Source: a virus (Duplodnaviria > Caudoviricetes). From it: DNA of 64,000 bases. Shown here one piece after another: positions 16,573 through 28,888 of this stretch; positions within the stretch are counted from its first letter, which is position 1; every line of letters starts with the position of its first letter. The stretch lies in the IMG/VR virus record IMGVR_UViG_3300020388_000010; one strand, written 5' to 3'. The position numbers were made by a program, and so were the translations under genes. The notes below the pieces were generated by a model. That model was not told the origin of the DNA. It did no database searches and worked only from the letters and a program-made list of their open reading frames with translations.

Positions 16573-17088
16573 ATGATACAATTATACAAGAACATTTTAC
16601 CAGATGATTTGGTAAAAGACTTGTTGGATTATTATGAATCATATGAACCTATTGATTATGGTAATTTCACACAAGTTGAGATAGATACTAAACATAAACT
16701 TACAGACTATATGAAAGATATAGTTTATAAAGTTGCAGACCATTATTTTGAGTTGCACGATAAAACAAACCAACACCCAGAACCATTTGCATTAGAGGGT
16801 TTTAGGATAAAAAGGTATGAACCTAATAAAGGTAGTTTTCCTTGGCATACTGACGCTGGTAATATACAAAACTGCACAAGGTTTCTTGCATTGTTGTTTT
16901 ATTTAAATACAAGTGAAGCTGGTACTAAATTTGAAAAGACATATGTACCAGCAGAAAAAGGTAGTGTGGTTGTATTCCCACCAATGTGGATGTTCCCACA
17001 CGAGGGTGAGATGCCTAAGAAAAAACCTAAGTTTATAATGAGTACATATTTACACTTTATGGGGGTTGACAAATCAAGACAAGTGTGA
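16573..17088 (+). CDS. 2OG-Fe(II) oxygenase
   Basis: WHTD, LFYLN, GTKF, VVFPPMWMFPHEG, K..STY. Confidence 0.88.
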   Translation: MIQLYKNILPDDLVKDLLDYYESYEPIDYGNFTQVEIDTKHKLTDYMKDIVYKVADHYFELHDKTNQHPEPFALEGFRIKRYEPNKGSFPWHTDAGNIQNCTRFLALLFYLNTSEAGTKFEKTYVPAEKGSVVVFPPMWMFPHEGEMPKKKPKFIMSTYLHFMGVDKSRQV

Positions 17089-18845: not shown

Positions 18846-19172
18846 TTGTTTATGATTACTATAACAGAAAACGCAAAAAAATACTTGTACGACATTGCAA
18901 AAAAGAACGACAAGAAGTTTGTTTCTTTTGGTGTAAGTGGTGGTGGTTGTGCTGGTTTCAGTTACAAGTGGGATTATATAGATGAGCCTGATAAAGGACA
19001 TACTATATTTCACATAAAAGACGAAGTATCACTTGCAGTAGATAAAGTTGCAGAGATGTATATAATGGGTGCTGAAATAGATTATGTACAAGAGATAATG
19101 GGTAGTTTCCTAAAAATAAATAATCCACTCACAAAGTCAAGTTGTGGTTGTGGAGAATCTTTTAGTGTTTAA
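18846..19172 (+). CDS. iscA: A-type Fe-S carrier protein (IscA/HesB family)
   Basis: ITITENA, GGGCAGFSY, IDY, NP..SCGCGESF. Confidence 0.95.
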   Translation: MFMITITENAKKYLYDIAKKNDKKFVSFGVSGGGCAGFSYKWDYIDEPDKGHTIFHIKDEVSLAVDKVAEMYIMGAEIDYVQEIMGSFLKINNPLTKSSCGCGESFSV

Positions 19173-19503: not shown

Positions 19504-19896
19504 ATGGCGTACAGTAAACAATTATTAGACCATTATGAGAACCCAAGAAATGTTGGGACTTTAGATAAAAATAAGAAAAATGTAGGTACTGGTTTGGTAG
19601 GAGCGCCAGCGTGTGGTGATGTTATGAAACTTCAGATAGAAGTTAATGACAAAGGTACAATAACAGATGCAAAATTTAAAACATTTGGATGTGGTTCTGC
19701 AATAGCCAGTAGTTCGCTAGTTACTGAGTGGCTGAAAGGAGCTCACATTGACGATGCACAATCAATTAAAAACACCGAGATTGCAACCGAACTTGCACTT
19801 CCCCCAGTTAAGATACATTGTTCAGTTCTTGCTGAAGATGCTGTCAAGTCTGCGATCTCTGATTATAAAAGAAAGTGCAGTTGTGATGATAGCTAG
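19504..19896 (+). CDS. iscU: Fe-S cluster scaffold IscU
   Basis: MAYS..LLDHYENPRNVG, GAPACGDVM, FKTFGCGSAIAS, LPPVKIHCS. Confidence 0.98.
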   Translation: MAYSKQLLDHYENPRNVGTLDKNKKNVGTGLVGAPACGDVMKLQIEVNDKGTITDAKFKTFGCGSAIASSSLVTEWLKGAHIDDAQSIKNTEIATELALPPVKIHCSVLAEDAVKSAISDYKRKCSCDDS

Positions 19897-20374: not shown

Positions 20375-20491
20375 ATGCAAATTACAAAGAACATAATAAA
20401 ATTTAATAGCTTTCTAATAAGTATTCCTAGACAAATGAAGGGTCTGTGGGATAAATCTGAAAACCGTTGGGGTTATAAACCAAAAAAATAA
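20375..20491 (+). CDS. 38-aa ORF preceding sdh[39 protein letters not shown] (not in track)
   Basis: Strong AAGGAG RBS; its stop is 1 nt before the sdhB ATG. Confidence 0.7.
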
Positions 20492-20492
20492 T

Positions 20493-21239
20493 ATGTTTGA
20501 ACTACCTAATAATTCAAAGATAATGAAAGGTAAATCGTTTGGAACTAAAAAGAATTTAGTTGTAAACATTTATCGTTGGAATCGTGAAAGTGGAAATAAT
20601 CCTAGTATTGACACTTATCATTTAGATAAATCAAAAATGGGGCCTATGTTGTTAGATGCGATTATGCACATTAAAAACAATGTAGACCCCACACTTACAT
20701 TTAGAAGAAGTTGTAGAGAGGGTATTTGTGGTAGTTGTTCTATGAACATCAATGGTACAAATACTCTTGCGTGTTTAACACCTATTGATAAGAAAGAATA
20801 CAACATCTATCCATTACCACATATGAGTGTCATAAAAGATTTGGTTGTGGACTTAGAACCATTCTTTGAACAATACAAAAGTATCAAACCATATGTCGTT
20901 ACTGGTAAGAAACCTAAAAAAGAACATATACAATTACCAGAGGATAGAAAAAAGTTAGACGGATTGTATGAGTGTATATTATGTGCCTGTTGTTCTACCT
21001 CGTGTCCTAGTTATTGGTGGAATAGTGATAAGTTTCTAGGGCCTGCAATACTACTACAAGCATATCGTTTCATAGTAGATAGTAGAGATAAGAATAAAAA
21101 AGAAAGACTTAAACAATTAAACGATGCATTTAAATTATATCGTTGTCATACTATAATGAACTGTACCAAGACTTGTCCTAAAGGTCTTAATCCAGCGAAA
21201 GCGATTTCTGAAATCAAGAAATTACAAGTGTCAAATTAA
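20493..21239 (+). CDS. sdhB: Succinate dehydrogenase iron-sulfur subunit
   Basis: [59 protein letters not shown]; alpha-type LPNNSKI N-terminus. Confidence 0.98.
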
Positions 21240-21288
21240 AAAGACCGTCATTTTCTTGACATCTAATAAATATTATTAGGAGAGAGAA

Positions 21289-21432
21289 ATGTTAGAAATA
21301 ATCAATTCATTATGGCCTATGTTTATAGGTTTTATAACACTAGTAGTAGTGTTATCACAAATGTATATGAGAATCCAAGTATTAGAAGAAAAGGTTAAAA
21401 CCCTTTTTGACTTACACAATAAATCCAAGTAA
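21289..21432 (+). CDS. Small single-TM protein (not in track)
   Basis: AGGAG RBS; MLEIINSLWPMFIGFITLVVVLSQMYMRIQVLEEKVKTLFDLHNKSK. Confidence 0.65.
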   Translation: MLEIINSLWPMFIGFITLVVVLSQMYMRIQVLEEKVKTLFDLHNKSK

Positions 21433-21548
21433 GTTGTAGTTCTACAACAATCCAAAAATAATTTAAAATAATTTAAAAAAAGACTTGACTTGTTATTAAA
21501 ACAATGTTAAGATCAAGACATAATCAAGAAAGAAAGGCAATAATAATT

Positions 21549-21824
21549 ATGAAAGAAAGTTATAAAATGAATCAAATGGAAAGAATAGAACACAAAAAAA
21601 AGATTGAGAAGTGGTCTAAGGATAATGTACAAAAATTACTAATGGGTAATGATTGGTTAAAGAGTGGTGAGTATACACCAAGTAGAAAACTACAAGAAAA
21701 TGTTAGTTGGTTTGAATTAGAATCAATGTCATTGAATAAGTTTTTAGAACTTGCAGATTTAGTTACAGCTGAGTCGCCAGGAACTTATACTTTAAATGAT
21801 TTAGTTAGAAAATTAGCAAAATAA
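21549..21824 (+). CDS. Early hypothetical protein
   Basis: Follows a promoter cassette; start moved from 21504. Confidence 0.65.
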   Translation: MKESYKMNQMERIEHKKKIEKWSKDNVQKLLMGNDWLKSGEYTPSRKLQENVSWFELESMSLNKFLELADLVTAESPGTYTLNDLVRKLAK

Positions 21825-21899
21825 TTTAAAAAAAGACTTGACATTGTTGTCAAAACATAGTACAATATAAACATAATCAAAAAAGAAAGAGAAAAAAAT

Positions 21900-22316
21900 A
21901 TGAAAAGTTATGTAAGTTTAGAGAGAGCTAAATCAGTTGACAAAGATACATTGATTGATAGTGCATTTAAAAAGTTCAACAAACAAAATGTTGACAAGAA
22001 CGGCGACTATATCAAGTATAGTGATTTAGAACAAAACTTTGACGGAGTTACTCAAATGTATGAGGGTCTTAATGAGTTAGAAGATGCATTGATTGATTAC
22101 ATTGAAGTTATACAAACTGTTAAAGGTGTAGTTAAGGATAAGTTAAAAGACGGAAACTTCAAAACTGATGATAAGGTTAAAGACAAGTTGTTCTATGAAG
22201 TTCAAGATTTACAAACTTATGCAAATCAATGGTTGCCTGATTATTCTGGTAATGTTGTTAGTGGTTTTAACAAACTTGTTGGAGATACTGACGAAGAACA
22301 TTTTCACCAACTTTAA
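21900..22316 (+). CDS. Early hypothetical protein
   Basis: Follows a promoter cassette. Confidence 0.7.
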   Translation: MKSYVSLERAKSVDKDTLIDSAFKKFNKQNVDKNGDYIKYSDLEQNFDGVTQMYEGLNELEDALIDYIEVIQTVKGVVKDKLKDGNFKTDDKVKDKLFYEVQDLQTYANQWLPDYSGNVVSGFNKLVGDTDEEHFHQL

Positions 22317-22385
22317 TAAAAAAAGACTTGACAATGTTCTTAAAACAAAGTATAATAGTAATATAATCAAGAAAGAAAGGTAATT

Positions 22386-22610
22386 ATGAATAAAAAAGAT
22401 GCACTAAAATGTATAGATTTAGTTCTAAATGAACAAGCAAGTTTAGCTGGTCAATATCCAGAGGGAAATTACTATGGAGAATTTGCAGTTATTTGTAAGA
22501 AGTATAACATTGACCCAGAAACACATTGGGAAAATGTTTTAGATGGAATGTATAACCCAGATGTAGAAGGTTATACTGTTAACAATGGAGGTGAATATGT
22601 CAAAAACTAG
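22386..22610 (+). CDS. Early hypothetical protein
   Basis: Follows a promoter cassette, AAGG RBS. Confidence 0.65.
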   Translation: MNKKDALKCIDLVLNEQASLAGQYPEGNYYGEFAVICKKYNIDPETHWENVLDGMYNPDVEGYTVNNGGEYVKN

Positions 22611-22961
22611 AAGAGTTTGGAAAAATTTGGGTTATCCCCACTATGCAAGTAGAAAGTTTACACCAGAAGAATACAAGGTGTATGTAAAGAACAATAACAA
22701 GATTTTTGAGTATACAGGCGAGGACAATATCGTATCTGTTACTGAAAAAGAATATAAACTACCATTTTAAAGAGGACAATATGAACGAAGATGAAATGAA
22801 AATCACATTACCTCCAGTTTATTGGAATCAATATAGACTACAAAAAGTAATCAACAAAGAAATTGATACTCTTGTAGACAATAAAATCATAGATAAAAAT
22901 GATTTTTAACTTGACATTGTTGTTAAAACATAGTATAATATTAATATAATGAAAAAAGAAA

Positions 22962-23174
22962 GTGAGTAAAATTATGACAAAAAGAATGGAAGCTGGTTAT
23001 ACAGTAGAAGAAATACAAGATATTATTCAAGGTGCAATAGATACTGCCAATGACGATAAAGGTTATGGAGTAGAAGGTGCATTAGATGATTTGTATTCTT
23101 TGGTGCAAGATTTAGATGAACACCAAAACATTGAGATACCATTAGTTGGTGAGGGTAATAGTGCCACTCAGTAA
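22962..23174 (+). CDS. Early hypothetical acidic protein
   Basis: Follows a promoter cassette. Confidence 0.6.
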   Translation: MSKIMTKRMEAGYTVEEIQDIIQGAIDTANDDKGYGVEGALDDLYSLVQDLDEHQNIEIPLVGEGNSATQ

Positions 23175-23287
23175 TCAAAAAAAGGTTCAGTTGTTGAACA
23201 AGATATACAATGACATTGACAAAGCACTATTGAAACAAGATTTCAGTAGAATAAAAACATTACAAAAAAGAAAGAGTAGATTATATA

Positions 23288-23644
23288 ATGATTAACAGTA
23301 GTAATTATGAGAATCAAAAGAAATTAGGTATACCATTTTTTGCAGTACCTAATACATTTAAACATTTCACAGACCCAGGCCACGGTTGGTATAGGGTATC
23401 AAGAGAGATGTTATTTAAAATGGATATACTAGATAAGATTTCTAGTTATTCATATCAAAAAGGTGATTGGGTTTATTTAGAAGAAGATTGTGATGCAACG
23501 ATATTCTTTGATAGGTATAAAGAGTTATTTGGTGATGAGTATCAAATCAAAATCACTCAGAATATCGCAAACAATATGAGTTCTATAAGATACTACCATC
23601 ATTTTCAGATGGGTGTTGGTAGTGGTATTCCTAAACCGATTTAG
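23288..23644 (+). CDS. Conserved phage/mobile-element hypothetical protein
   Basis: TDPGHGW.V, ISSYSY, VYLEEDCDA motif set. Confidence 0.7.
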   Translation: MINSSNYENQKKLGIPFFAVPNTFKHFTDPGHGWYRVSREMLFKMDILDKISSYSYQKGDWVYLEEDCDATIFFDRYKELFGDEYQIKITQNIANNMSSIRYYHHFQMGVGSGIPKPI

Positions 23645-23676
23645 AGTAAGAAAATTTTTCACATATACATATTAGT

Positions 23677-23859
23677 ATGGGAAGAATAATATCATTCGCC
23701 GAACACCGAGAGAGGATTAAACTAGAGAAGATAAGAGAGCATCTTAATACTTCTTTAGGACTTAATCTCTCACAGAAATCGGTGAAGTTTTTATTCACAC
23801 CCCCAGACGACATAATGGAGAAATGGTATGACAAGCCCAAAGAAGTCAAAGATACTTAA
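23677..23859 (+). CDS. Hypothetical protein
   Basis: ORF on the coding strand. Confidence 0.5.
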   Translation: MGRIISFAEHRERIKLEKIREHLNTSLGLNLSQKSVKFLFTPPDDIMEKWYDKPKEVKDT

Positions 23860-23936
23860 TTTCAAACACGCTCAGAATCGTAAGTTTAACGAGGACAACA
23901 CAGTTGAATTTACAACAGATGATGAGGAATTGACAT

Positions 23937-24155
23937 TTGAATTTGAATTGGAAGAAGATGAAAAGGATAATATTCACTAAACAAAAAGAGTGTTTATTTC
24001 TTGACATATATGCGAATACTGTTGGGTTAGTCTATGACCCAGAGGAAAATTCATTTGCACGAGAAGTATTCTGTATAGATGCAAGTAATATGAGATATAT
24101 TGAACAGCAGATGAGTCTACACGGATTTCGTAGAATGTATAACCTAATGAGTTAA
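23937..24155 (+). CDS. Hypothetical protein (start uncertain)
   Basis: ORF on the coding strand. Confidence 0.5.
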   Translation: MNLNWKKMKRIIFTKQKECLFLDIYANTVGLVYDPEENSFAREVFCIDASNMRYIEQQMSLHGFRRMYNLMS

Positions 24156-24165
24156 GGAGAGAGAA

Positions 24166-24351
24166 ATGGGTTATGAGGATATTCATAGAGGAGTAACCAA
24201 AATTTTACAAGACACTAAAGAGAAAACAATCAAAGTTACAAAAGAAGTTGTTAGTTGTGATAACGGACACCCAGTGGTATATATTAATGTACCATTTGAT
24301 CAGATAATGAGATGTCCTTATTGTAATCTCGCATATGAGAGAATAAAATGA
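24166..24351 (+). CDS. zf-CHCC zinc-finger protein (NDUFS6/NUMM-like)
   Basis: VVSCD.GHPVVYI......CPYC; AGGAG RBS. Confidence 0.85.
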   Translation: MGYEDIHRGVTKILQDTKEKTIKVTKEVVSCDNGHPVVYINVPFDQIMRCPYCNLAYERIK

Positions 24352-24497
24352 AGTGGAATAAACCAAGTATAGAAGAGAAACAATTAGGTCAGTTTTCAGA
24401 CAAACCTAAGAAACCAAAAGAAATAAACGGCCCTAACGGACTAGAACCCACTCGGTATGGAGATTGGGAACGCAAGGGTATATGTTATGATTTCTAA
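24348..24497 (+). CDS. DUF1674 / succinate dehydrogenase assembly factor 4 (SDHAF4/Sdh8)-like protein (not in track)
   Basis: MKWNKPSIEEKQLGQFSDKPKKPKEINGPNGLEPTRYGDWERKGICYDF*, with the hallmark EPTRYGDWERKG...DF; ATGA overlap with zf-CHCC. Confidence 0.93.
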   Translation: MKWNKPSIEEKQLGQFSDKPKKPKEINGPNGLEPTRYGDWERKGICYDF

Positions 24498-24599
24498 ACT
24501 GATTGGTGGATTTAAAGAAGGATATGAAATGACAAACTTTGAAGGTAACCCAGATAATTGGAATGGTAAAGGTGATAAGAATGGATATACTGAGGGTAA

Positions 24600-25154
24600 A
24601 TGGTTAGCACAAAGAAAGAGATAAACTTTATAGAATCGTATACTTGCGATTTAGATTTTTCTTTCCTTAGACAAAAACACGAGTATCTCGTAGAGGGAGT
24701 CGTAAAGACTCATTATGGTCTAGAGGTAGATAAATCAGTAAAGAGTTGTAAAGAATACGGAATCAATCCAGAGAGTCCGTTAATCGTTCCTTATCGTAAT
24801 CATTTACAAGAATGCCTAAACGATTATGTACAGAAGTATGACCTACTAAACAAACACCCACATTTTAATATCTATGATGTAATCAATTATCAACGATATG
24901 ATAAGGGAGAAGGATATTATGATTGGCACTTTGAGAACTTTGACTGTGGTCGTGTAATCGTGTTTATGACTTATCTTACGAATACATCTGATGCCGGAAC
25001 TGAATTTCTCTATCAGAATATAAAGACTGAATGTGTTAAGGGAACAACTATATTATGGCCTGCGTATTGGACTCATACTCATAGAGGTATTATATCAAAA
25101 AAACATAGAAAAGAGATATTAACTGGTTGGTTCTCTACTAGAGCTCCGTCCTAG
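24600..25154 (+). CDS. 2OG-Fe(II) oxygenase
   Basis: WHFE, FMTYL, GTEF, LWPAYWTHTHRG, KEILTGW. Confidence 0.88.
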   Translation: MVSTKKEINFIESYTCDLDFSFLRQKHEYLVEGVVKTHYGLEVDKSVKSCKEYGINPESPLIVPYRNHLQECLNDYVQKYDLLNKHPHFNIYDVINYQRYDKGEGYYDWHFENFDCGRVIVFMTYLTNTSDAGTEFLYQNIKTECVKGTTILWPAYWTHTHRGIISKKHRKEILTGWFSTRAPS

Positions 25155-25332
25155 AGATACATTGACTGCGTACCACGACATTTCTGTTATTTTCATCAAT
25201 AAATGCAAGGTTAAAGATGTATTCTAACTCTAAACATATTTGATGTGATTCCATATACATTTCAATAGAATAAGACTTACTTTCTTCTTCAAACGATATA
25301 AAAACAATAAGTGCGAGAATAAATGACTGCAT
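25138..25332 (-). CDS. Small secreted two-Cys protein in inverted orientation
   Basis: Signal-like N-terminus, ESHQIC...SQC; late-promoter-like CTAAATA upstream. Confidence 0.55.
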   Translation of the reverse strand: MQSFILALIVFISFEEESKSYSIEMYMESHQICLELEYIFNLAFIDENNRNVVVRSQCISRTEL

Positions 25333-25530
25333 AGTTCTATTTAGTTCATTTCCGTAAGAATATTAAAAAGGTTAAAATAAAGTGTATGTGGTGTTCATTT
25401 GATTTCAACATTTATCGTTGCAAAAATACAACAACTCTGAGAAAAATTACGAAAAAAATAAAATAACACTTGACTTGTTCTTAAAACAATGGTACTATAG
25501 AGACATAATTAAAAAAGAAAGGGAATAATT

Positions 25531-25839
25531 ATGTTTAATTTTGTAACAAATCGTGAATACACTGGTCAGAACTATGATGTGCTGAGCGCTTCTGGTAAAG
25601 GTGAAGAGTTTGCTGGATTCCATCAAGGTAAGAAATTCTTTGGTGTAAAGGGAACTGACCTTAAAGGTATCAAGGCAGCCGCCGCTGTGATGTTCGTTGT
25701 TAAGAAAACGAAGGAAGATGGAGATGAGTCTAAGTCTATTAGATATAAGTCTGTGTTTGCAAAGTCTGACTTTGAACAAGCGATTGCTCGTAATAAGGTT
25801 CTTAATCCGAATAGGAAAGTAGAAACTATTTCTGAGTAG
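25531..25839 (+). CDS. ArdC-like N-terminal ssDNA-binding domain protein
   Basis: NFVTNREYTGQN, FAGFHQ, KG, YKSVF match the ArdC/DUF1738 pattern. Confidence 0.6.
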   Translation: MFNFVTNREYTGQNYDVLSASGKGEEFAGFHQGKKFFGVKGTDLKGIKAAAAVMFVVKKTKEDGDESKSIRYKSVFAKSDFEQAIARNKVLNPNRKVETISE

Positions 25840-25907
25840 AGGCCTTGACAAGGGGCCCTACTTAGTGTTATACTATACTTGTATTTAATGAGAAAGGTTT
25901 AAATAAT

Positions 25908-26144
25908 ATGTATGAAACAGATAGATATAAACCATTAGGTTTAACATTGAATCAAAGATTAAACTTTGTATATAACAATGGTATCTCAGATGATATTAAA
26001 CTGTCTGGTACTGTGAAAGAAATAGTATGTACAGACAAAAATGGAAAGAAGTTCTCCTATGTTGAGGTTCTTTCTGATAATGGTCTAGCTCACTTTCTAG
26101 TACCCAACTCAAATGGTGAGTGGCAGTCAACGGCAGAATACTAA
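25908..26144 (+). CDS. Hypothetical protein
   Basis: sigma70 promoter and GAAAGG RBS upstream. Confidence 0.6.
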   Translation: MYETDRYKPLGLTLNQRLNFVYNNGISDDIKLSGTVKEIVCTDKNGKKFSYVEVLSDNGLAHFLVPNSNGEWQSTAEY

Positions 26145-26156
26145 GAGGTTAGGGTT

Positions 26157-26216
26157 AGAAGTCTTACTGGAGCTCTTCGGAGTTAGGTGTTTTCGGAACA
26201 CACTGCATAGACTTCT
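26157..26216 (+). ncRNA. Unassigned structured RNA (three-way junction with two UUCG hairpins)
   Basis: AGAAGTCT/AGACTTCT closing stem, AGCTC-TTCG-GAGTT and GTGTT-TTCG-GAACAC hairpins, intergenic. Confidence 0.6.
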
Positions 26217-26395
26217 CTTACTTATGGGTGGGGGTCAAAACTGACAACAGTTTGGTAATCTATAAATGCAATAAAGATACGGAGAACTATTTTGGTTAAT
26301 AAAGAAGATATACTGAAAAGAATTAAAAGGGATATGAGAGATAAAGGGTTTCTCAATAAATATAGTGGGTGTATGACTAAGAAAAGGAATGACAA

Positions 26396-26557
26396 ATGAA
26401 CTGTTGGCATTGTGATACAGAATTAATCTGGGGAGGCGACCACGACATATCAGAAGATAACGAAGACTATCAGATGGTTACGAATCTATCGTGTCAGAAC
26501 TGTGGATGTCTGGTAGAGGTTTACCTACCCCACCCCCCTAAAACTGAGAGTAATTGA
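26396..26557 (+). CDS. Small zinc-ribbon protein (not in track)
   Basis: MNCWHCDTELIWGGDHD...TNLSCQNCG.LVEVY. Confidence 0.75.
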   Translation: MNCWHCDTELIWGGDHDISEDNEDYQMVTNLSCQNCGCLVEVYLPHPPKTESN

Positions 26558-26581
26558 TTTGCACTACCCTATATATAAAAT

Positions 26582-26731
26582 ATGAGTATTATTTCAACTC
26601 CTTGCATCAAAGTATGCAGACTAGTCAGTAATAAGTGTGAAGGTTGCAACAGAACTTTCAATCAAATACAGAACTGGCTATCATATTCCGAGAACAAAAG
26701 AAAAAGAATAATGGAGAAGTTAAATGGATAA
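26582..26731 (+). CDS. DUF1289/YdhL-like predicted Fe-S protein (not in track)
   Basis: STPCIKVC......CEGCNRT..QI.NW..YSE..R..IM. Confidence 0.85.
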   Translation: MSIISTPCIKVCRLVSNKCEGCNRTFNQIQNWLSYSENKRKRIMEKLNG

Positions 26732-27281
26732 CGACCCATACTTACAGTTAATGAATGAAATGAAAAGTATTCGTAAAGAAATGAAAGAACTCAATGATAA
26801 GTTAGATAGTCATATCTCATTCATAGAGGGAATATATAGTGGTTTACGCCACCCAATAGATAAAGTAAAGGATTGGTTCAAATGATTAGTGATAGAACAA
26901 AACAGTTAGTAGATAAATTTATACAAGAGGGAGTTAACTCACCAGTAAGAGGGTGGAGTATGTCAGAGGTATTAGAAAAGGTTAGAAAAGTAAAAGGTAG
27001 TGTACCACAAGCTCGTGAGTATATACTGGATAGTTATGACCGTAAGCATCATAATATGCTTAATGAATGAGAAGAGATGAGATAAATATGAAGTTATTGA
27101 TAATCATTATAATAGTAACCTTAACATCTTTTTGTTCTATGAGGGAACAAGGAGAGGTTATATTACAAGAAAGAGAAAAGAATTTAGAATGGATTCCGAC
27201 CCTATTGAGATAATCATCAATATGATCTGTGTATCTATTGTATCAATTCTTTTTCTATTAACTTAAAGAAAGGAGAAACCT

Positions 27282-27404
27282 ATGAGAGTATTATTAGTTG
27301 CATTACTACTGAGTGTCGGTGCGTGTGCAGATAAAGGATATGAAGTATTACCAAATCACGACCATATTAAATGTACTGGTAAATGTGATGTTAGATTAAA
27401 GTAG
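27282..27404 (+). CDS. Small lipoprotein (not in track)
   Basis: AGGAG RBS; MRVLLVALLLSVGA-C lipobox. Confidence 0.65.
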   Translation: MRVLLVALLLSVGACADKGYEVLPNHDHIKCTGKCDVRLK

Positions 27405-27506
27405 GTCTGAAATCCCCTCCGAAAAAAATCTTTAAAAAAAATCTTTGTGAGGGTTGACTTATTCTGAGAGGTATGTTATATTAATAATAAGAAAGAGAAG
27501 GTAAAT

Positions 27507-27773
27507 ATGGAACAACTTGAATTATTTGATATTAAAGACCTAGTTTTGGCTGGGTTAAGTTTTGAACAACCTAAACCAGGCAGTTTTGTTTGGTATGAAG
27601 AATGGCACGAGGATTATATTAATCCGAGAAGTGGTTATTGTTATGTTCAAAAGTTGGATGTTGATTTTAACTTTATCTGTTATGATGCAGAGAATAAAAG
27701 ACATCTAGTGTTAAGACATCACGAGATTAAGAGAGTTGATGAGTTAAGAGAATGGACACCAAAAAAACAATAA
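27507..27773 (+). CDS. Hypothetical protein
   Basis: Promoter TTGACT..TATATT and RBS upstream. Confidence 0.6.
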   Translation: MEQLELFDIKDLVLAGLSFEQPKPGSFVWYEEWHEDYINPRSGYCYVQKLDVDFNFICYDAENKRHLVLRHHEIKRVDELREWTPKKQ

Positions 27774-27876
27774 ACGATATAGAGTTCTGGGAGCATTACT
27801 GTCCTATTGAGCAAGATATTATGGGAACTGAAAAAGGGTGTCCTTGTAATTGGTGTGATAAAACTGAGGAAGATAT

Positions 27877-28134
27877 ATGAAATGGTTATTAGTATTAAGT
27901 GTTACTATCTTACATAATGATGGTGCATTTCCAGCCAAGACTTATGAAATGCGAGGTTATACAGACTTCGGACAATGTTCACAAGCAAAAGCTGATGTAG
28001 ATTACATTTTTAAAAACAAACACGAAACAGTTGTAGTTCTTGCAGACTGTTTTACAGATGAGTCTTACGGTGAGTTTCTTAATCGTAAGCAAGAAGGTAA
28101 AGACAAAGGTAGAAAACTTTTGGAGATTAAATAA
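27877..28134 (+). CDS. Small secreted two-Cys protein
   Basis: MKWLLVLSV, TDFGQC...ADC. Confidence 0.6.
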   Translation: MKWLLVLSVTILHNDGAFPAKTYEMRGYTDFGQCSQAKADVDYIFKNKHETVVVLADCFTDESYGEFLNRKQEGKDKGRKLLEIK

Positions 28135-28337
28135 TGTTTGGTGCGATTAAAGAAATAATGAAAGACACCTATATCTTTTTACGAGATATGTGGTTTGCAA
28201 TAGAGGACTTCTTTGAGTTCAAAGTATGGCCTCATAGATTAGAATGGCTGATTGCATTAACTGGATTACTTACTGCATTTAATATTATACTATTAATGCA
28301 TATTGCATTTAATGTTGACTTAGGGTGTATTCAATGA
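28134..28337 (+). CDS. Hypothetical membrane protein
   Basis: C-terminal TM. Confidence 0.55.
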   Translation: MFGAIKEIMKDTYIFLRDMWFAIEDFFEFKVWPHRLEWLIALTGLLTAFNIILLMHIAFNVDLGCIQ

Positions 28338-28546
28338 CAACTATATGGAAGATTAATTCAGAGAAGATTGCAAAACGACACGGAAGAAATACTTTTGACA
28401 AGTTGAGTAATGCAGAAGCAAAGAAAATAGGATATTGTTATTGTGTTCCCTACACAAATAAAGAAGCAATCAAAGAATATCGTAAAGGTTATGAAGAAGA
28501 ACAAAGACAAAGACAAGAAGAGTTGATGAAAGGAGGTAGTAAATGA
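28325..28546 (+). CDS. Hypothetical protein
   Basis: ORF in operon. Confidence 0.5.
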   Translation: MYSMTTIWKINSEKIAKRHGRNTFDKLSNAEAKKIGYCYCVPYTNKEAIKEYRKGYEEEQRQRQEELMKGGSK

Positions 28547-28669
28547 TGAGACTTATATGTGGTATTCTCATAGGTTTTTATCTGGTCTACAAGTTCCCCA
28601 TAGAAAAAGATGTGGAGAACGCAATGCGTGGTGCAGATGAAGTCTTTGGTGCGATTATGGATTCAGTAG

Positions 28670-28888
28670 ATGACGGTATTGGACGACAAGATAATTCTCT
28701 TTCCGAGTGAGAAAGAATTTAAGATAGAGTTTTTAATTGATGAAGAAGTATCAATGAGAGGCTCTGATAAAAATATACAATGGACGATTGACCATAACTT
28801 TGGTACTGCAATCGTCATTGCAAGAACACGAGAACAAGCAAAGCAATATGTTTGCGATTGTATTGATGTGTTAGAATGGATAGAATAA
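28670..28888 (+). CDS. Hypothetical protein
   Basis: ORF in operon. Confidence 0.55.
   Translation: MTVLDDKIILFPSEKEFKIEFLIDEEVSMRGSDKNIQWTIDHNFGTAIVIARTREQAKQYVCDCIDVLEWIE

What the first reader, a model, noticed from the sequence alone, without database searches (positions are those of the whole stretch)
24166..24497. Translationally coupled pair of mitochondrial-type assembly factors (NDUFS6-like + SDHAF4-like)
Seen: the zf-CHCC gene and the DUF1674 gene overlap by ATGA, and the second is absent from the ORF track. Established: both families are characteristic of alphaproteobacteria and mitochondria and act on complex I and complex II respectively. Inference: the phage has assembled a mini-operon targeting both respiratory entry points, either aiding assembly or modulating/inhibiting it.
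Basis: partly seen in the sequence, partly recalled or inferred. Interest (0 to 1): 0.7.

Follow-up and report, generated by a model that had tools for sequence, protein, structure and literature searches.

The report
Phage SDHAF4-like and NDUFS6-like gene pair
A marine T4-like phage carries two tiny overlapping genes, copies of a bacterial helper that matures succinate dehydrogenase and of a zinc-finger subunit of respiratory complex I, and they belong to a larger phage gene set (IscA, IscU, SdhB) that most likely keeps the host's iron-sulfur respiratory enzymes working during infection.

Summary
ORF 24166-24351 (61 aa) scores above Pfam's cut-off for zf-CHCC, and ORF 24348-24497 (49 aa) scores far above it for DUF1674/SDHAF4. 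They overlap by ATGA.

The DUF1674 protein keeps all four residues shown by experiment to dock human SDHAF4 onto SDHA. The zinc finger keeps the C-H-C-C ligands and models as an NDUFS6 fold, but its first loop is short (Cx3H).

The ATGA overlap is ordinary here: 11 of 100 neighbouring ORF pairs have one. The linkage is not ordinary. Neither gene had the other beside it in the bacterial loci searched (80 and 33). In phage contigs they are adjacent in both orders. The finger also sits directly before a phage sdhB, and DUF1674 abuts iscU or is fused to IscA.

The window itself encodes IscA, IscU and an intact SdhB upstream.

Best reading: these are parts of a shuffled phage kit that sustains complex II and perhaps complex I. 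Calling NDUFS6 an assembly factor is inaccurate; it is a structural subunit. The finger's target in the phage setting is open, and a fold test gave only weak support for binding to phage SdhB.

Earlier notes of this scan describe similar phage genes on other DNA.

The parts
24166..24351 (+). zf-CHCC / NDUFS6-like zinc-finger gene (61 aa). It has an N-terminal helix (residues 4-19) followed by five short strands. Zinc ligands are C31, H35, C50 and C53, with a short Cx3H first loop.
   Evidence: Pfam PF10276 scores 34.7 bits against a cut-off of 27. A profile of five viral sequences hits NDUFS6 chains in the PDB. The AF2 model has pLDDT 72.6, and the top Foldseek hits are all NDUFS6 with TM about 0.65 and rmsd 1.8-2.4 A over about 54 residues. 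The ligands are invariant in 11 aligned sequences.
24348..24497 (+). DUF1674 / SDHAF4-like gene (49 aa). It ends in the tail ...KE..GP.G.EPTRYGDWERKG...DF.
   Evidence: Pfam PF07896 scores 65.4 bits against a cut-off of 23.5. Its profile hits human SDHAF4 (8DYD/8DYE) and Rhodobacter RhR2 (2K5K). E25, E33, D48 and F49 align with human E84, E92, D107 and F108, and all four are invariant in 16 viral sequences.
24348..24351 (+). ATGA start/stop overlap between the two genes.
   Evidence: Read directly. Eleven such overlaps occur among 100 consecutive + strand ORF pairs in the window.
24154..24163 (+). Shine-Dalgarno-like AAGGAGAGAG in front of the zf-CHCC start.
   Evidence: Sequence read. This is an inference, not an experiment.
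24337..24341 (+). Internal GAGAG 6 nt before the DUF1674 start, inside the zf-CHCC gene.
   Evidence: Sequence read. This is an inference.
24487..24624 (+). Next small gene (about 45 aa, no family hit). Its likely start at 24487 overlaps the end of DUF1674 by 11 nt, which continues the chain of tightly packed genes.
   Evidence: It is conserved in L001 and L012.
24600..25154 (+). 2OG-Fe(II) oxygenase gene directly downstream, in the same packed gene run.
   Evidence: Pfam PF13640 scores 31.7 bits; PHROG 61 gives E 9.5e-30.
22911..22939 (+). Perfect sigma-70-like promoter (TTGACA, 17 nt, TATAAT). It is the nearest upstream promoter candidate, and no + strand terminator-like site follows before 25600.
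   Evidence: This is a consensus match only.
20493..21239 (+). Phage sdhB, the succinate dehydrogenase iron-sulfur subunit (248 aa). All cysteine ligands of the three clusters are conserved.
   Evidence: NCBIfam NF004616 scores 355.7 bits against a cut-off of 228; Pfam finds Fer2_3 plus Fer4 domains. Alignment A5. The gene recurs in 22 IMG/VR loci.
19504..19896 (+). Phage iscU, the Fe-S cluster scaffold.
   Evidence: TIGR01999 scores 225 bits against a cut-off of 192; Pfam NifU_N scores 176 bits.
18852..19172 (+). Phage iscA/erpA-type Fe-S carrier.
   Evidence: Pfam Fe-S_biosyn scores 53.3 bits; TIGR00049 scores 91 bits.

Best explanation
Both ORFs are real phage genes derived from cellular genes. 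They belong to a flexible phage gene set for iron-sulfur respiratory enzymes: IscA, IscU, SdhB, an SDHAF4-like peptide and an NDUFS6-like zinc finger.

Proposed mechanism:
- The 49-aa DUF1674 protein works like SDHAF4. Its two conserved Glu residues make first contact with flavinylated host SdhA. Its terminal Asp-Phe then plugs the dicarboxylate site and keeps SdhA capped and ready for assembly.
- Phage-made SdhB, loaded with clusters by phage IscU and IscA, then takes its place. Complex II therefore keeps being rebuilt while host gene expression fails. This preserves TCA flux, quinone reduction and removal of succinate.
- The 61-aa zinc finger most likely acts as its alphaproteobacterial homologue does, as a small zinc-bound clamp on the Fe-S-bearing NuoG/NuoI region that stabilises the N-module of complex I.
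- The ATGA overlap only makes the two genes be transcribed and translated together, probably from the sigma-70-like promoter at 22911. The adjacency reflects membership of one co-selected gene pool, not a proven physical pair.

Shown here: gene reality, family membership, conserved contact and ligand residues, and phage-specific linkage. Inferred: every binding event, the timing, and the benefit to the phage.
For: - Family membership: both Pfam scores exceed their cut-offs. PDB profile hits are SDHAF4 8DYD/8DYE and RhR2, and NDUFS6 chains including the P. denitrificans complex I subunit 8QBY_R.
- Contact residues: the four SDHAF4 residues whose mutation impairs SDHA binding or SDHAF2 displacement (E84, E92, D107, F108; PMC10784507) correspond to E25, E33, D48 and F49. 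All four are invariant in 16 viral homologues.
- Zinc finger: the ligands are invariant, and the fold model matches NDUFS6.
- The window encodes IscA, IscU and a complete SdhB 3-5.5 kb upstream.
- The same families recur together in other viral contigs in different arrangements. zf then DUF1674: window, L001. DUF1674 then zf: L002/3, L004, L005. zf about 1.7 kb upstream of DUF1674: L027-29, L031. zf 8 nt before sdhB: L162/163. DUF1674 abutting iscU: L039, L045. IscA-DUF1674 fusion: L015/16.
- Independent context: 17 of 80 bacterial DUF1674 loci, mostly Gammaproteobacteria, have sdhB 2.7-3.7 kb downstream on the same strand, consistent with DUF1674 heading the sdh operon.
- In P. denitrificans the zf-CHCC protein is a zinc-binding complex I subunit that contacts NDUFS1 and NDUFS8 (PMC11522691).
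- The genome is a T4-like phage whose nearest cultured relatives are Melnitz, Mosig and HTVC008M. Contigs from RNA libraries, from close relatives, cover 24264-24621, but DNA carry-over is not excluded.
Against: - No experiment exists for any bacterial or phage DUF1674 or for any phage zf-CHCC.
- The host is not identified. In the SdhB tree the phage clade is monophyletic on a long stem and the donor is unresolved.
- The zinc finger departs from the usual first-loop length (Cx3H, against 8-9 residues in the bacterial sequences aligned here) and carries an extra N-terminal helix, so its partner may differ.
- No complex I gene was seen near it in the phage loci whose neighbours were examined.
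- Linkage is not obligatory. 11 of 20 viral zf-CHCC loci have no DUF1674 within 5 kb, and in five of these the neighbours are replication or nucleotide genes. The relative L012 lacks both sdhB and the finger but keeps a DUF1674.
- The six contigs with direct adjacency are close kin, so they represent few independent events.
- No RNA-library contig covered 24103-24263.
Confidence: 0.5

Rival explanations
1. The pair is one functional unit acting on succinate dehydrogenase. In these phages the NDUFS6-type finger has been recruited to complex II. It would bind phage SdhB, or the SdhA-SDHAF4 intermediate, as a phage-specific stabiliser or assembly helper, not host complex I.
For: - Where the finger's phage neighbours are respiratory genes, they are complex II or Fe-S genes. 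It flanks DUF1674 on either side, it sits 8 nt before sdhB in L162/163, and SdhB lies 3 kb away in the window, L002 and L004. In bacteria it is linked to none of these.
- SdhB combines a 2Fe-2S ferredoxin domain with a dicluster ferredoxin-like domain. These are the kinds of modules NDUFS6 contacts in complex I (NDUFS1, NDUFS8). That parallel is my inference.
- Complex prediction of phage SdhB with the finger gave weak support. The median score was 0.38 and the best of 3 controls 0.01. This mark was reached by 58 of 80 solved complexes and 2 of 110 mismatched pairs. At 0.60 or below, though, it was reached by only 7 of those 80 solved complexes and by both mismatches that passed. The runs agree in at least 93% of contacts, and the partner's pLDDT is at least 69. 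No solved complex of these two families is known to me.
- An earlier scan note (e1-5326635) reports a phage gene that fuses such a finger to an SDHAF4 tail. I could not reproduce this.
Against: - By the tool's own calibration, a pass this weak is more often wrong than right unless the guess was already likely.
- The only experimentally placed homologues sit in complex I (and the related COX5B fold in complex IV).
- Many viral zf-CHCC genes are not near any SDH gene.
- Hyperplastic regions of T4-like phages pack unrelated host-derived genes together.
- My searches for the fused form found none.
Confidence: 0.2
2. The genes are inhibitors or decoys. Excess SDHAF4-like peptide caps SdhA's active site and withholds it from complex II, and the free finger competes with the host subunit. 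The phage would thereby throttle or redirect host respiration.
For: The SDHAF4 tail occludes the dicarboxylate site, with Asp acting as a substrate mimic, and prevents catalysis while it is bound (PMC10784507). DUF1674 tails are attached to unrelated domains (NUDIX in L017/19/20; unknown N-termini in L018, L022 and L026). This would suit a portable SdhA-docking or blocking peptide.
Against: The same phage and its relatives carry an intact SdhB with all cluster ligands, plus IscU and IscA. These are pointless if SDH is to be shut down. In the normal pathway SdhB binding follows the SDHAF4-bound state. The finger keeps the full zinc site and core, as expected of a working subunit rather than a decoy.
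Confidence: 0.12
3. The neighbourhood is an accident. The two genes are unrelated passengers in a variable slot of the genome and have no common selective reason. One or both may be nearly neutral morons.
For: The slot is variable. L012 has 84-100% identical proteins upstream of the slot (71-98% downstream) but a different DUF1674, another small ORF and no finger. Overlapping starts and stops are generic here. Direct adjacency is confined to a set of related contigs.
Against: Adjacency is kept in both gene orders, with the finger only 52-56% identical between the two orders while DUF1674 is 87-90% identical. Other arrangements join the same five families in other phage lineages. Both proteins keep their functional residues across 16 and 11 sequences.
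Confidence: 0.15

Closest known systems
SDHAF4 / yeast Sdh8 / bacterial DUF1674 (Pfam PF07896; human SDHA-SDHAF4 structures 8DYD and 8DYE; Rhodobacter RhR2, 2K5K)
   Same: It has the same C-terminal 27-residue signature, including the terminal Asp-Phe and the two Glu residues needed for SDHA binding. It has the same small size with a variable N-terminus. Like the family in Gammaproteobacteria, it is genomically associated with sdh genes.
   Different: It is encoded by a phage and is shorter (49 aa) than the mitochondrial forms. It is linked to a phage-made SdhB, to Fe-S scaffold genes and to a zinc finger, not to sdhCDAB. In other phages the tail is fused to IscA or NUDIX domains. Its function has not been tested.
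NDUFS6 / NUMM / alphaproteobacterial zf-CHCC subunit of complex I (Pfam PF10276; P. denitrificans 8QBY chain R)
   Same: It has the C-H-C-C zinc site, the HPxVY core and the CxYC knuckle. It is a small strand-rich zinc domain. Like the bacterial forms, it lacks the mitochondrial N-terminal domain.
   Different: Its first loop has 3 residues instead of 8-9, and it has an added N-terminal helix of about 16 residues. It is encoded by a phage, and no complex I gene was seen near it in the phage loci whose neighbours were examined. In phages it neighbours complex II and Fe-S genes. NDUFS6 is a structural subunit, not an assembly factor.
Auxiliary metabolic genes of marine T4-like phages (for example cyanophage psbA, or mazG and phoH in Melnitz; PMC7029224, PMC9004378)
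   Same: These are host-derived genes carried among small phage genes in T4-like genomes and presumed to sustain host energy metabolism during infection.
   Different: The targets here are respiratory complexes and their maturation. Neither pelagimyophage nor Melnitz paper mentions succinate or NADH genes. In the held library the only papers containing 'DUF1674' or 'zf-CHCC' do not concern phages.

Membership tests
SDHAF4 / DUF1674 (PF07896) | Profile match above the curated cut-off | tested here: met
   65.4 bits against 23.5, covering residues 6-49. A PDB profile search hits human SDHAF4 with E 3e-13.
SDHAF4 / DUF1674 (PF07896) | Asp-Phe as the last two residues (human D107, F108: dicarboxylate mimic and active-site plug) | tested here: met
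   D48 and F49 are the last residues before the stop codon. They are invariant in 16 viral sequences.
SDHAF4 / DUF1674 (PF07896) | Two conserved Glu residues that contact SDHA (human E84, E92) | tested here: met
   E25 and E33 align to them and are invariant.
SDHAF4 / DUF1674 (PF07896) | Genomic association with succinate dehydrogenase genes | tested here: met
   Phage sdhB lies 3.1 kb upstream. In 17 of 80 bacterial loci sdhB follows DUF1674 by 2.7-3.7 kb on the same strand.
SDHAF4 / DUF1674 (PF07896) | Binds flavinylated SdhA, displaces SdhE/SDHAF2 and promotes SdhA-SdhB assembly | not tested
This needs biochemistry.
NDUFS6 / zf-CHCC (PF10276) | Profile match above the curated cut-off | tested here: met
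   34.7 bits against 27. A viral-only profile hits NDUFS6 chains with E about 1e-5.
NDUFS6 / zf-CHCC (PF10276) | Cys-His-Cys-Cys zinc ligands | tested here: met
   C31, H35, C50 and C53 are invariant in 11 viral and bacterial sequences.
NDUFS6 / zf-CHCC (PF10276) | Usual spacing of about 8 residues between the first Cys and the His | tested here: not met
   The spacing is 3 residues here, against 8-9 in the bacterial homologues aligned. Of 55 short representatives (150 aa or less) found with the viral profile, 17 share the 3-residue loop.
NDUFS6 / zf-CHCC (PF10276) | NDUFS6-type fold | tested here: met
   The AF2 model has pLDDT 72.6. The top Foldseek PDB hits are all NDUFS6, with TM about 0.65 and rmsd 1.8-2.4 A over 53-56 columns; COX5B hits are weaker. 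E-values are only about 1e-3 because the domain is small.
NDUFS6 / zf-CHCC (PF10276) | Is a subunit of complex I that contacts NuoG (NDUFS1) and NuoI (NDUFS8) | not tested
   This is known for P. denitrificans (PMC11522691) but was not examined for the phage protein. No nuo gene was seen beside it in the phage loci examined.
Translationally coupled gene pair | Start codon overlapping the upstream stop, with a ribosome-binding site inside the upstream gene | tested here: met
   ATGA at 24348-24351, with GAGAG 6 nt upstream. Actual coupling cannot be tested here, and the overlap is common in this genome.
Phage auxiliary metabolic gene | Homologue of a cellular metabolic gene embedded among phage genes and expressed in infection | tested here: inconclusive
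   The gene is embedded in a T4-like genome. RNA-library contigs of relatives cover 24264-24621, but DNA carry-over is not excluded and 24103-24263 is uncovered.

The most novel reading that the evidence does not exclude
The NDUFS6-type zinc finger of these phages has switched partner. It works on succinate dehydrogenase, binding phage SdhB or the SdhA-SDHAF4 intermediate. The overlapping pair would then be a single phage-invented complex II assembly module, not a two-target set. It would be the first case of a complex I accessory-subunit fold re-used for complex II.
Probability: 0.2. Interest if true: 0.8.

Novelty: new member of a known kind. Interest (0 to 1): 0.6.

Why it matters
Bacterial SDHAF4-like proteins have never been tested, and complex II assembly in bacteria is known mainly through SdhE. 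A phage carries SDHAF4, SdhB and the Fe-S scaffolds together and keeps shuffling them as a set. That is natural evidence that these parts work together. It also gives a compact system for reconstituting SdhA-to-SdhB hand-over.

For marine virology it adds respiratory-complex maintenance to the list of host functions that abundant T4-like phages of streamlined heterotrophs take over. The best-known parallel is photosystem repair by cyanophages.

If the zinc finger proves to act on SdhB, it would show how a supernumerary subunit fold can move between respiratory complexes.

One speculative link is worth testing. The phage encodes several 2-oxoglutarate oxygenases, which produce succinate. Keeping SDH active may relieve product inhibition of those enzymes.

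Tried and rejected
- Cultured-phage records (INPHARED): blastn of 23000-26000 and tblastn of both proteins found nothing.
- The nearest held virus record, G001, has no match to 23600-25200. The window's own assembly is not held.
- No tRNA genes in the window.
- PHROGs and NCBIfam have no family for either protein.
- An alignment mixing viral and bacterial fingers was too divergent for a locus search.
- The word-based homologue search for the finger returned only close metagenomic relatives.
- A fused zf-CHCC-DUF1674 gene, a lead from scan note e1-5326635, was not found. I looked among longer DUF1674 proteins (lengths of 87-104 aa were covered only by the single-sequence search). I looked among 63 profile hits of the finger. 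I also ran two back-translated DNA pattern scans of IMG/VR, whose 16 hits were all chance. This does not show that the fusion is absent.
- TATAAATA late-promoter words are not enriched in the window (12 against 11.5 expected), and none lies near the pair.
- RNA-library contigs: no cover of 24103-24263 in four runs, and the covered parts may be DNA carry-over.
- The SdhB tree did not resolve a donor or a host (this was the quick tree, because the careful search did not finish).
- Pfam found nothing for ten small ORFs downstream, 25531-28885.

Full report
**What is there**

On the + strand of a 32% G+C window lie two small ORFs, 24166..24351 (61 aa) and 24348..24497 (49 aa). The second start overlaps the first stop as ATGA. 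A GGAG precedes the first start. A GAGAG lies 6 nt before the second start, inside the first gene.

Pfam places the first ORF in zf-CHCC (34.7 bits, cut-off 27) and the second in DUF1674 (65.4 bits, cut-off 23.5). PHROGs and NCBIfam have nothing for either. The 49-aa ORF is simply too short for a 60-aa ORF listing.

The window is a T4-like phage. Its baseplate and tail proteins hit PHROG families strongly. The nearest cultured relatives by the baseplate wedge protein are Methylophilales phage Melnitz (53%) and the Pelagibacter phages Mosig (48%) and HTVC008M (46.5%).

**Are they what the HMMs say?**

A profile of 16 viral DUF1674 proteins hits human SDHAF4 (8DYD/8DYE) and Rhodobacter RhR2 (2K5K) over the last 28 residues. 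The structural paper on SDHA-SDHAF4 shows that the terminal Asp-Phe (D107, F108) enters the SDHA active site, with the Asp acting as a dicarboxylate mimic. It also shows that E84 and E92 are needed for binding or for displacing SDHAF2 (PMC10784507). In the phage protein these positions are E25, E33, D48 and F49, and all four are invariant in the 16 viral sequences.

For the finger, a viral-only profile hits NDUFS6 chains of many complex I structures. A mixed profile also hits the 62-aa zf-CHCC subunit of Paracoccus denitrificans complex I, 8QBY_R. The ligands C31, H35, C50 and C53 are invariant.

An AlphaFold2 model (pLDDT 72.6) has a helix at residues 4-19 and five strands. Its best PDB matches are all NDUFS6, with TM about 0.65 and rmsd 1.8-2.4 A, followed by weaker COX5B matches.

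One family habit is not kept. The first Cys and the His are 3 residues apart, not 8-9 as in the bacterial proteins aligned here. This short-loop form is a sizeable subfamily: 17 of the 55 short representatives (150 aa or less) found with the viral profile have it.

In P. denitrificans this protein is a zinc-binding structural subunit that contacts NDUFS1 and NDUFS8 and stabilises the N-module (PMC11522691). So 'assembly factor' is the wrong label for it.

**Is the pairing special?**

The overlap itself is not. Among 100 consecutive + strand ORF pairs in the window, 11 overlap by ATGA and 35 overlap in some way.

The neighbourhood is special.
- 80 bacterial DUF1674 loci with 10 kb on each side, 1.27 Mb in all and mostly Alphaproteobacteria and Gammaproteobacteria, contain no zf-CHCC gene.
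- 33 bacterial zf-CHCC loci with 1.5 kb on each side contain no DUF1674, SdhB, IscU or IscA. Locus L202, from the unpublished genome G051, was left out.
- In five genomes, including a Pelagibacterales chromosome, the two genes are single-copy and 245-960 kb apart.
- In the Pelagibacterales genome the finger lies between folE and a zinc alcohol dehydrogenase gene, and DUF1674 lies next to acetyl-CoA synthetase.
- zf-CHCC was found in 96 of 121 sampled genomes of that class. One of the 121 is the unpublished G051; the tally is 95 of 120 without it.

**What phage contigs show**

IMG/VR holds 45 loci with a DUF1674 gene. The finger lies immediately upstream of it in L001, as in the window. It lies immediately downstream in L002/L003, L004 and L005, and about 1.7 kb upstream in L027-L029 and L031.

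Between the two gene orders, DUF1674 stays 87-90% identical while the finger is only 52-56% identical.

Taken the other way, 9 of 20 viral zf-CHCC loci have DUF1674 within 5 kb. In five of the others the neighbours are ThyX, primase, DnaB, RNase H or tryptophan dioxygenase.

L012 has 84-100% identical proteins upstream of the slot (71-98% downstream), but the slot holds a different DUF1674 and no finger.

**The larger context**

A scan of the neighbouring ORFs showed that the window also encodes three related genes:
- IscA at 18852-19172;
- IscU at 19504-19896 (TIGR01999, 225 bits);
- a complete SdhB at 20493-21239 (NF004616, 355.7 bits against 228), with every cysteine of its three clusters conserved.

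Phage-type SdhB recurs in IMG/VR (22 loci). The T4-like copies form one well-supported clade on a long stem, separate from Pelagibacterales and other Proteobacteria, so the donor is unresolved (quick tree).

The same five families keep meeting in different arrangements:
- the finger sits 8 nt before sdhB in L162/L163;
- DUF1674 abuts iscU in L039 and L045;
- an IscA domain is fused to a DUF1674 tail in L015/L016, and NUDIX is fused to it in L017/19/20;
- SdhB lies about 3.5 kb upstream of the pair in L002 and L004.

In 17 of the 80 bacterial loci, mostly Gammaproteobacteria, sdhB lies 2.7-3.7 kb downstream of DUF1674 on the same strand, as expected if DUF1674 heads sdhCDAB. This is independent context evidence for the SDHAF4-like role.

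**Expression**

A perfect sigma-70-like promoter lies at 22911-22939, and no + strand terminator-like site follows before 25600. No TATAAATA lies near the pair.

Contigs from four RNA libraries, from relatives 90-99% alike, cover much of 20400-25200. This includes 24264-24621 but not 24103-24263. DNA in these libraries cannot be excluded. Two of those libraries hold contigs that skip 20475 to 21229. These are relatives without sdhB, like L012.

**Mechanism**

The best-supported reading is that the SDHAF4-like peptide caps flavinylated host SdhA and hands it to phage-made SdhB, which phage IscU and IscA have loaded with clusters. This keeps complex II assembled during infection. By homology, the finger would stabilise the Fe-S-bearing N-module of complex I. 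All of the binding steps are inferred.

An inhibitory role for the peptide is conceivable, because the tail blocks the active site while it is bound. The intact SdhB and the scaffold genes argue against that.

**A more novel reading**

The finger may serve complex II. Where its phage neighbours are respiratory genes, they are always SDH or Fe-S genes.

One fold test of phage SdhB with the finger gave weak support.
- The median score was 0.38 and the best of 3 controls 0.01.
- This mark was reached by 58 of 80 solved complexes and 2 of 110 mismatched pairs.
- At 0.60 or below it was reached by only 7 of those 80 solved complexes and by both mismatches that passed.
- The runs agree in at least 93% of contacts, and the partner's pLDDT is at least 69.

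By the tool's own calibration, such a pass is more often wrong than right unless the guess was already likely.

An earlier scan note reports a phage gene that fuses such a finger to an SDHAF4 tail. I could not find one in my searches, and those searches had gaps in length coverage.

**Literature and earlier notes**

In the held library no paper combines DUF1674 with phage. The only papers containing 'DUF1674' or 'zf-CHCC' do not concern phages. The pelagimyophage and Melnitz genome papers do not mention succinate or NADH genes. One paper lists bacterial Zf-CHCC as a precursor of COX subunit Vb (PMC10411912).

They also show similar phage genes flagged on other DNA.

**Verdict**

The genes are new phage members of known families. 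Their linkage is specific to phages and belongs to a complex II and Fe-S gene set. The finger's partner is unresolved.

Noticed in passing
window 20493-21239: A complete succinate dehydrogenase iron-sulfur subunit gene (sdhB) in a T4-like phage. It is present or absent among close relatives: L012 lacks it, and RNA-library contigs join 20475 to 21229. In INPHARED the only plausible phage hit is a 'hypothetical protein' of Phage C48C1 (OQ984149.1, 53% identity); most of the other hits look like bacterial DNA.
   Followed up: partly
L015:2428-2940 and L016:798-1310; L017:3596-4147, L019:1928-2479 and L020: Single ORFs in viral contigs fuse an IscA/HesB Fe-S carrier domain, or a NUDIX hydrolase domain, to a C-terminal DUF1674/SDHAF4 tail. 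L018, L022 and L026 carry the tail on N-terminal parts with no known family. The tail behaves as a portable module.
   Followed up: partly
L162:1129-2023 and L163:5850-6744: A zf-CHCC gene of about 38 codons, probably with a TTG start, ends 8 nt before the start of a phage sdhB. This is a third way in which the finger is joined to complex II genes.
   Followed up: partly
L039:3711-4330 and L045:1-482: A DUF1674 gene abuts or overlaps the start of iscU in viral contigs. An iscA lies upstream in L039.
   Followed up: no
Bacterial loci such as L048, L050, L067, L072, L082, L087, L104, L112, L121 and L126: In 17 of 80 bacterial DUF1674 loci, mostly Gammaproteobacteria, sdhB lies 2.7-3.7 kb downstream on the same strand. 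This fits DUF1674 heading the sdhCDAB operon. The alphaproteobacterial loci lack this linkage.
   Followed up: partly
Proteins P0049-P0107: A short-loop (Cx3H) subfamily of zf-CHCC proteins, many of them Lys/Asn/Ile-rich and 40-100 aa long, makes up about a third of the representatives found with the viral profile. Their origin (phage or cellular) was not determined.
   Followed up: no
window 16573-17088 and 24600-25154: Two 2OG-Fe(II) oxygenase genes flank the Fe-S/SDH gene set. These enzymes release succinate, so sustained SDH activity might relieve their product inhibition. This is speculative.
   Followed up: no
window 22911-22939: A perfect TTGACA, 17 nt, TATAAT promoter-like site lies in front of the run of small genes that contains the pair.
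   Followed up: no
L012:3900-4400 compared with window 24090-24640: The slot between two conserved small genes holds different cassettes in close relatives. The window and L001 have zf-CHCC plus DUF1674. L012 has a DUF1674 with a different N-terminus plus another small ORF.
   Followed up: partly
L143:4468-5745: In another viral contig a zf-CHCC-like gene sits between a DUF4396 gene and a tryptophan 2,3-dioxygenase-like gene.
   Followed up: no
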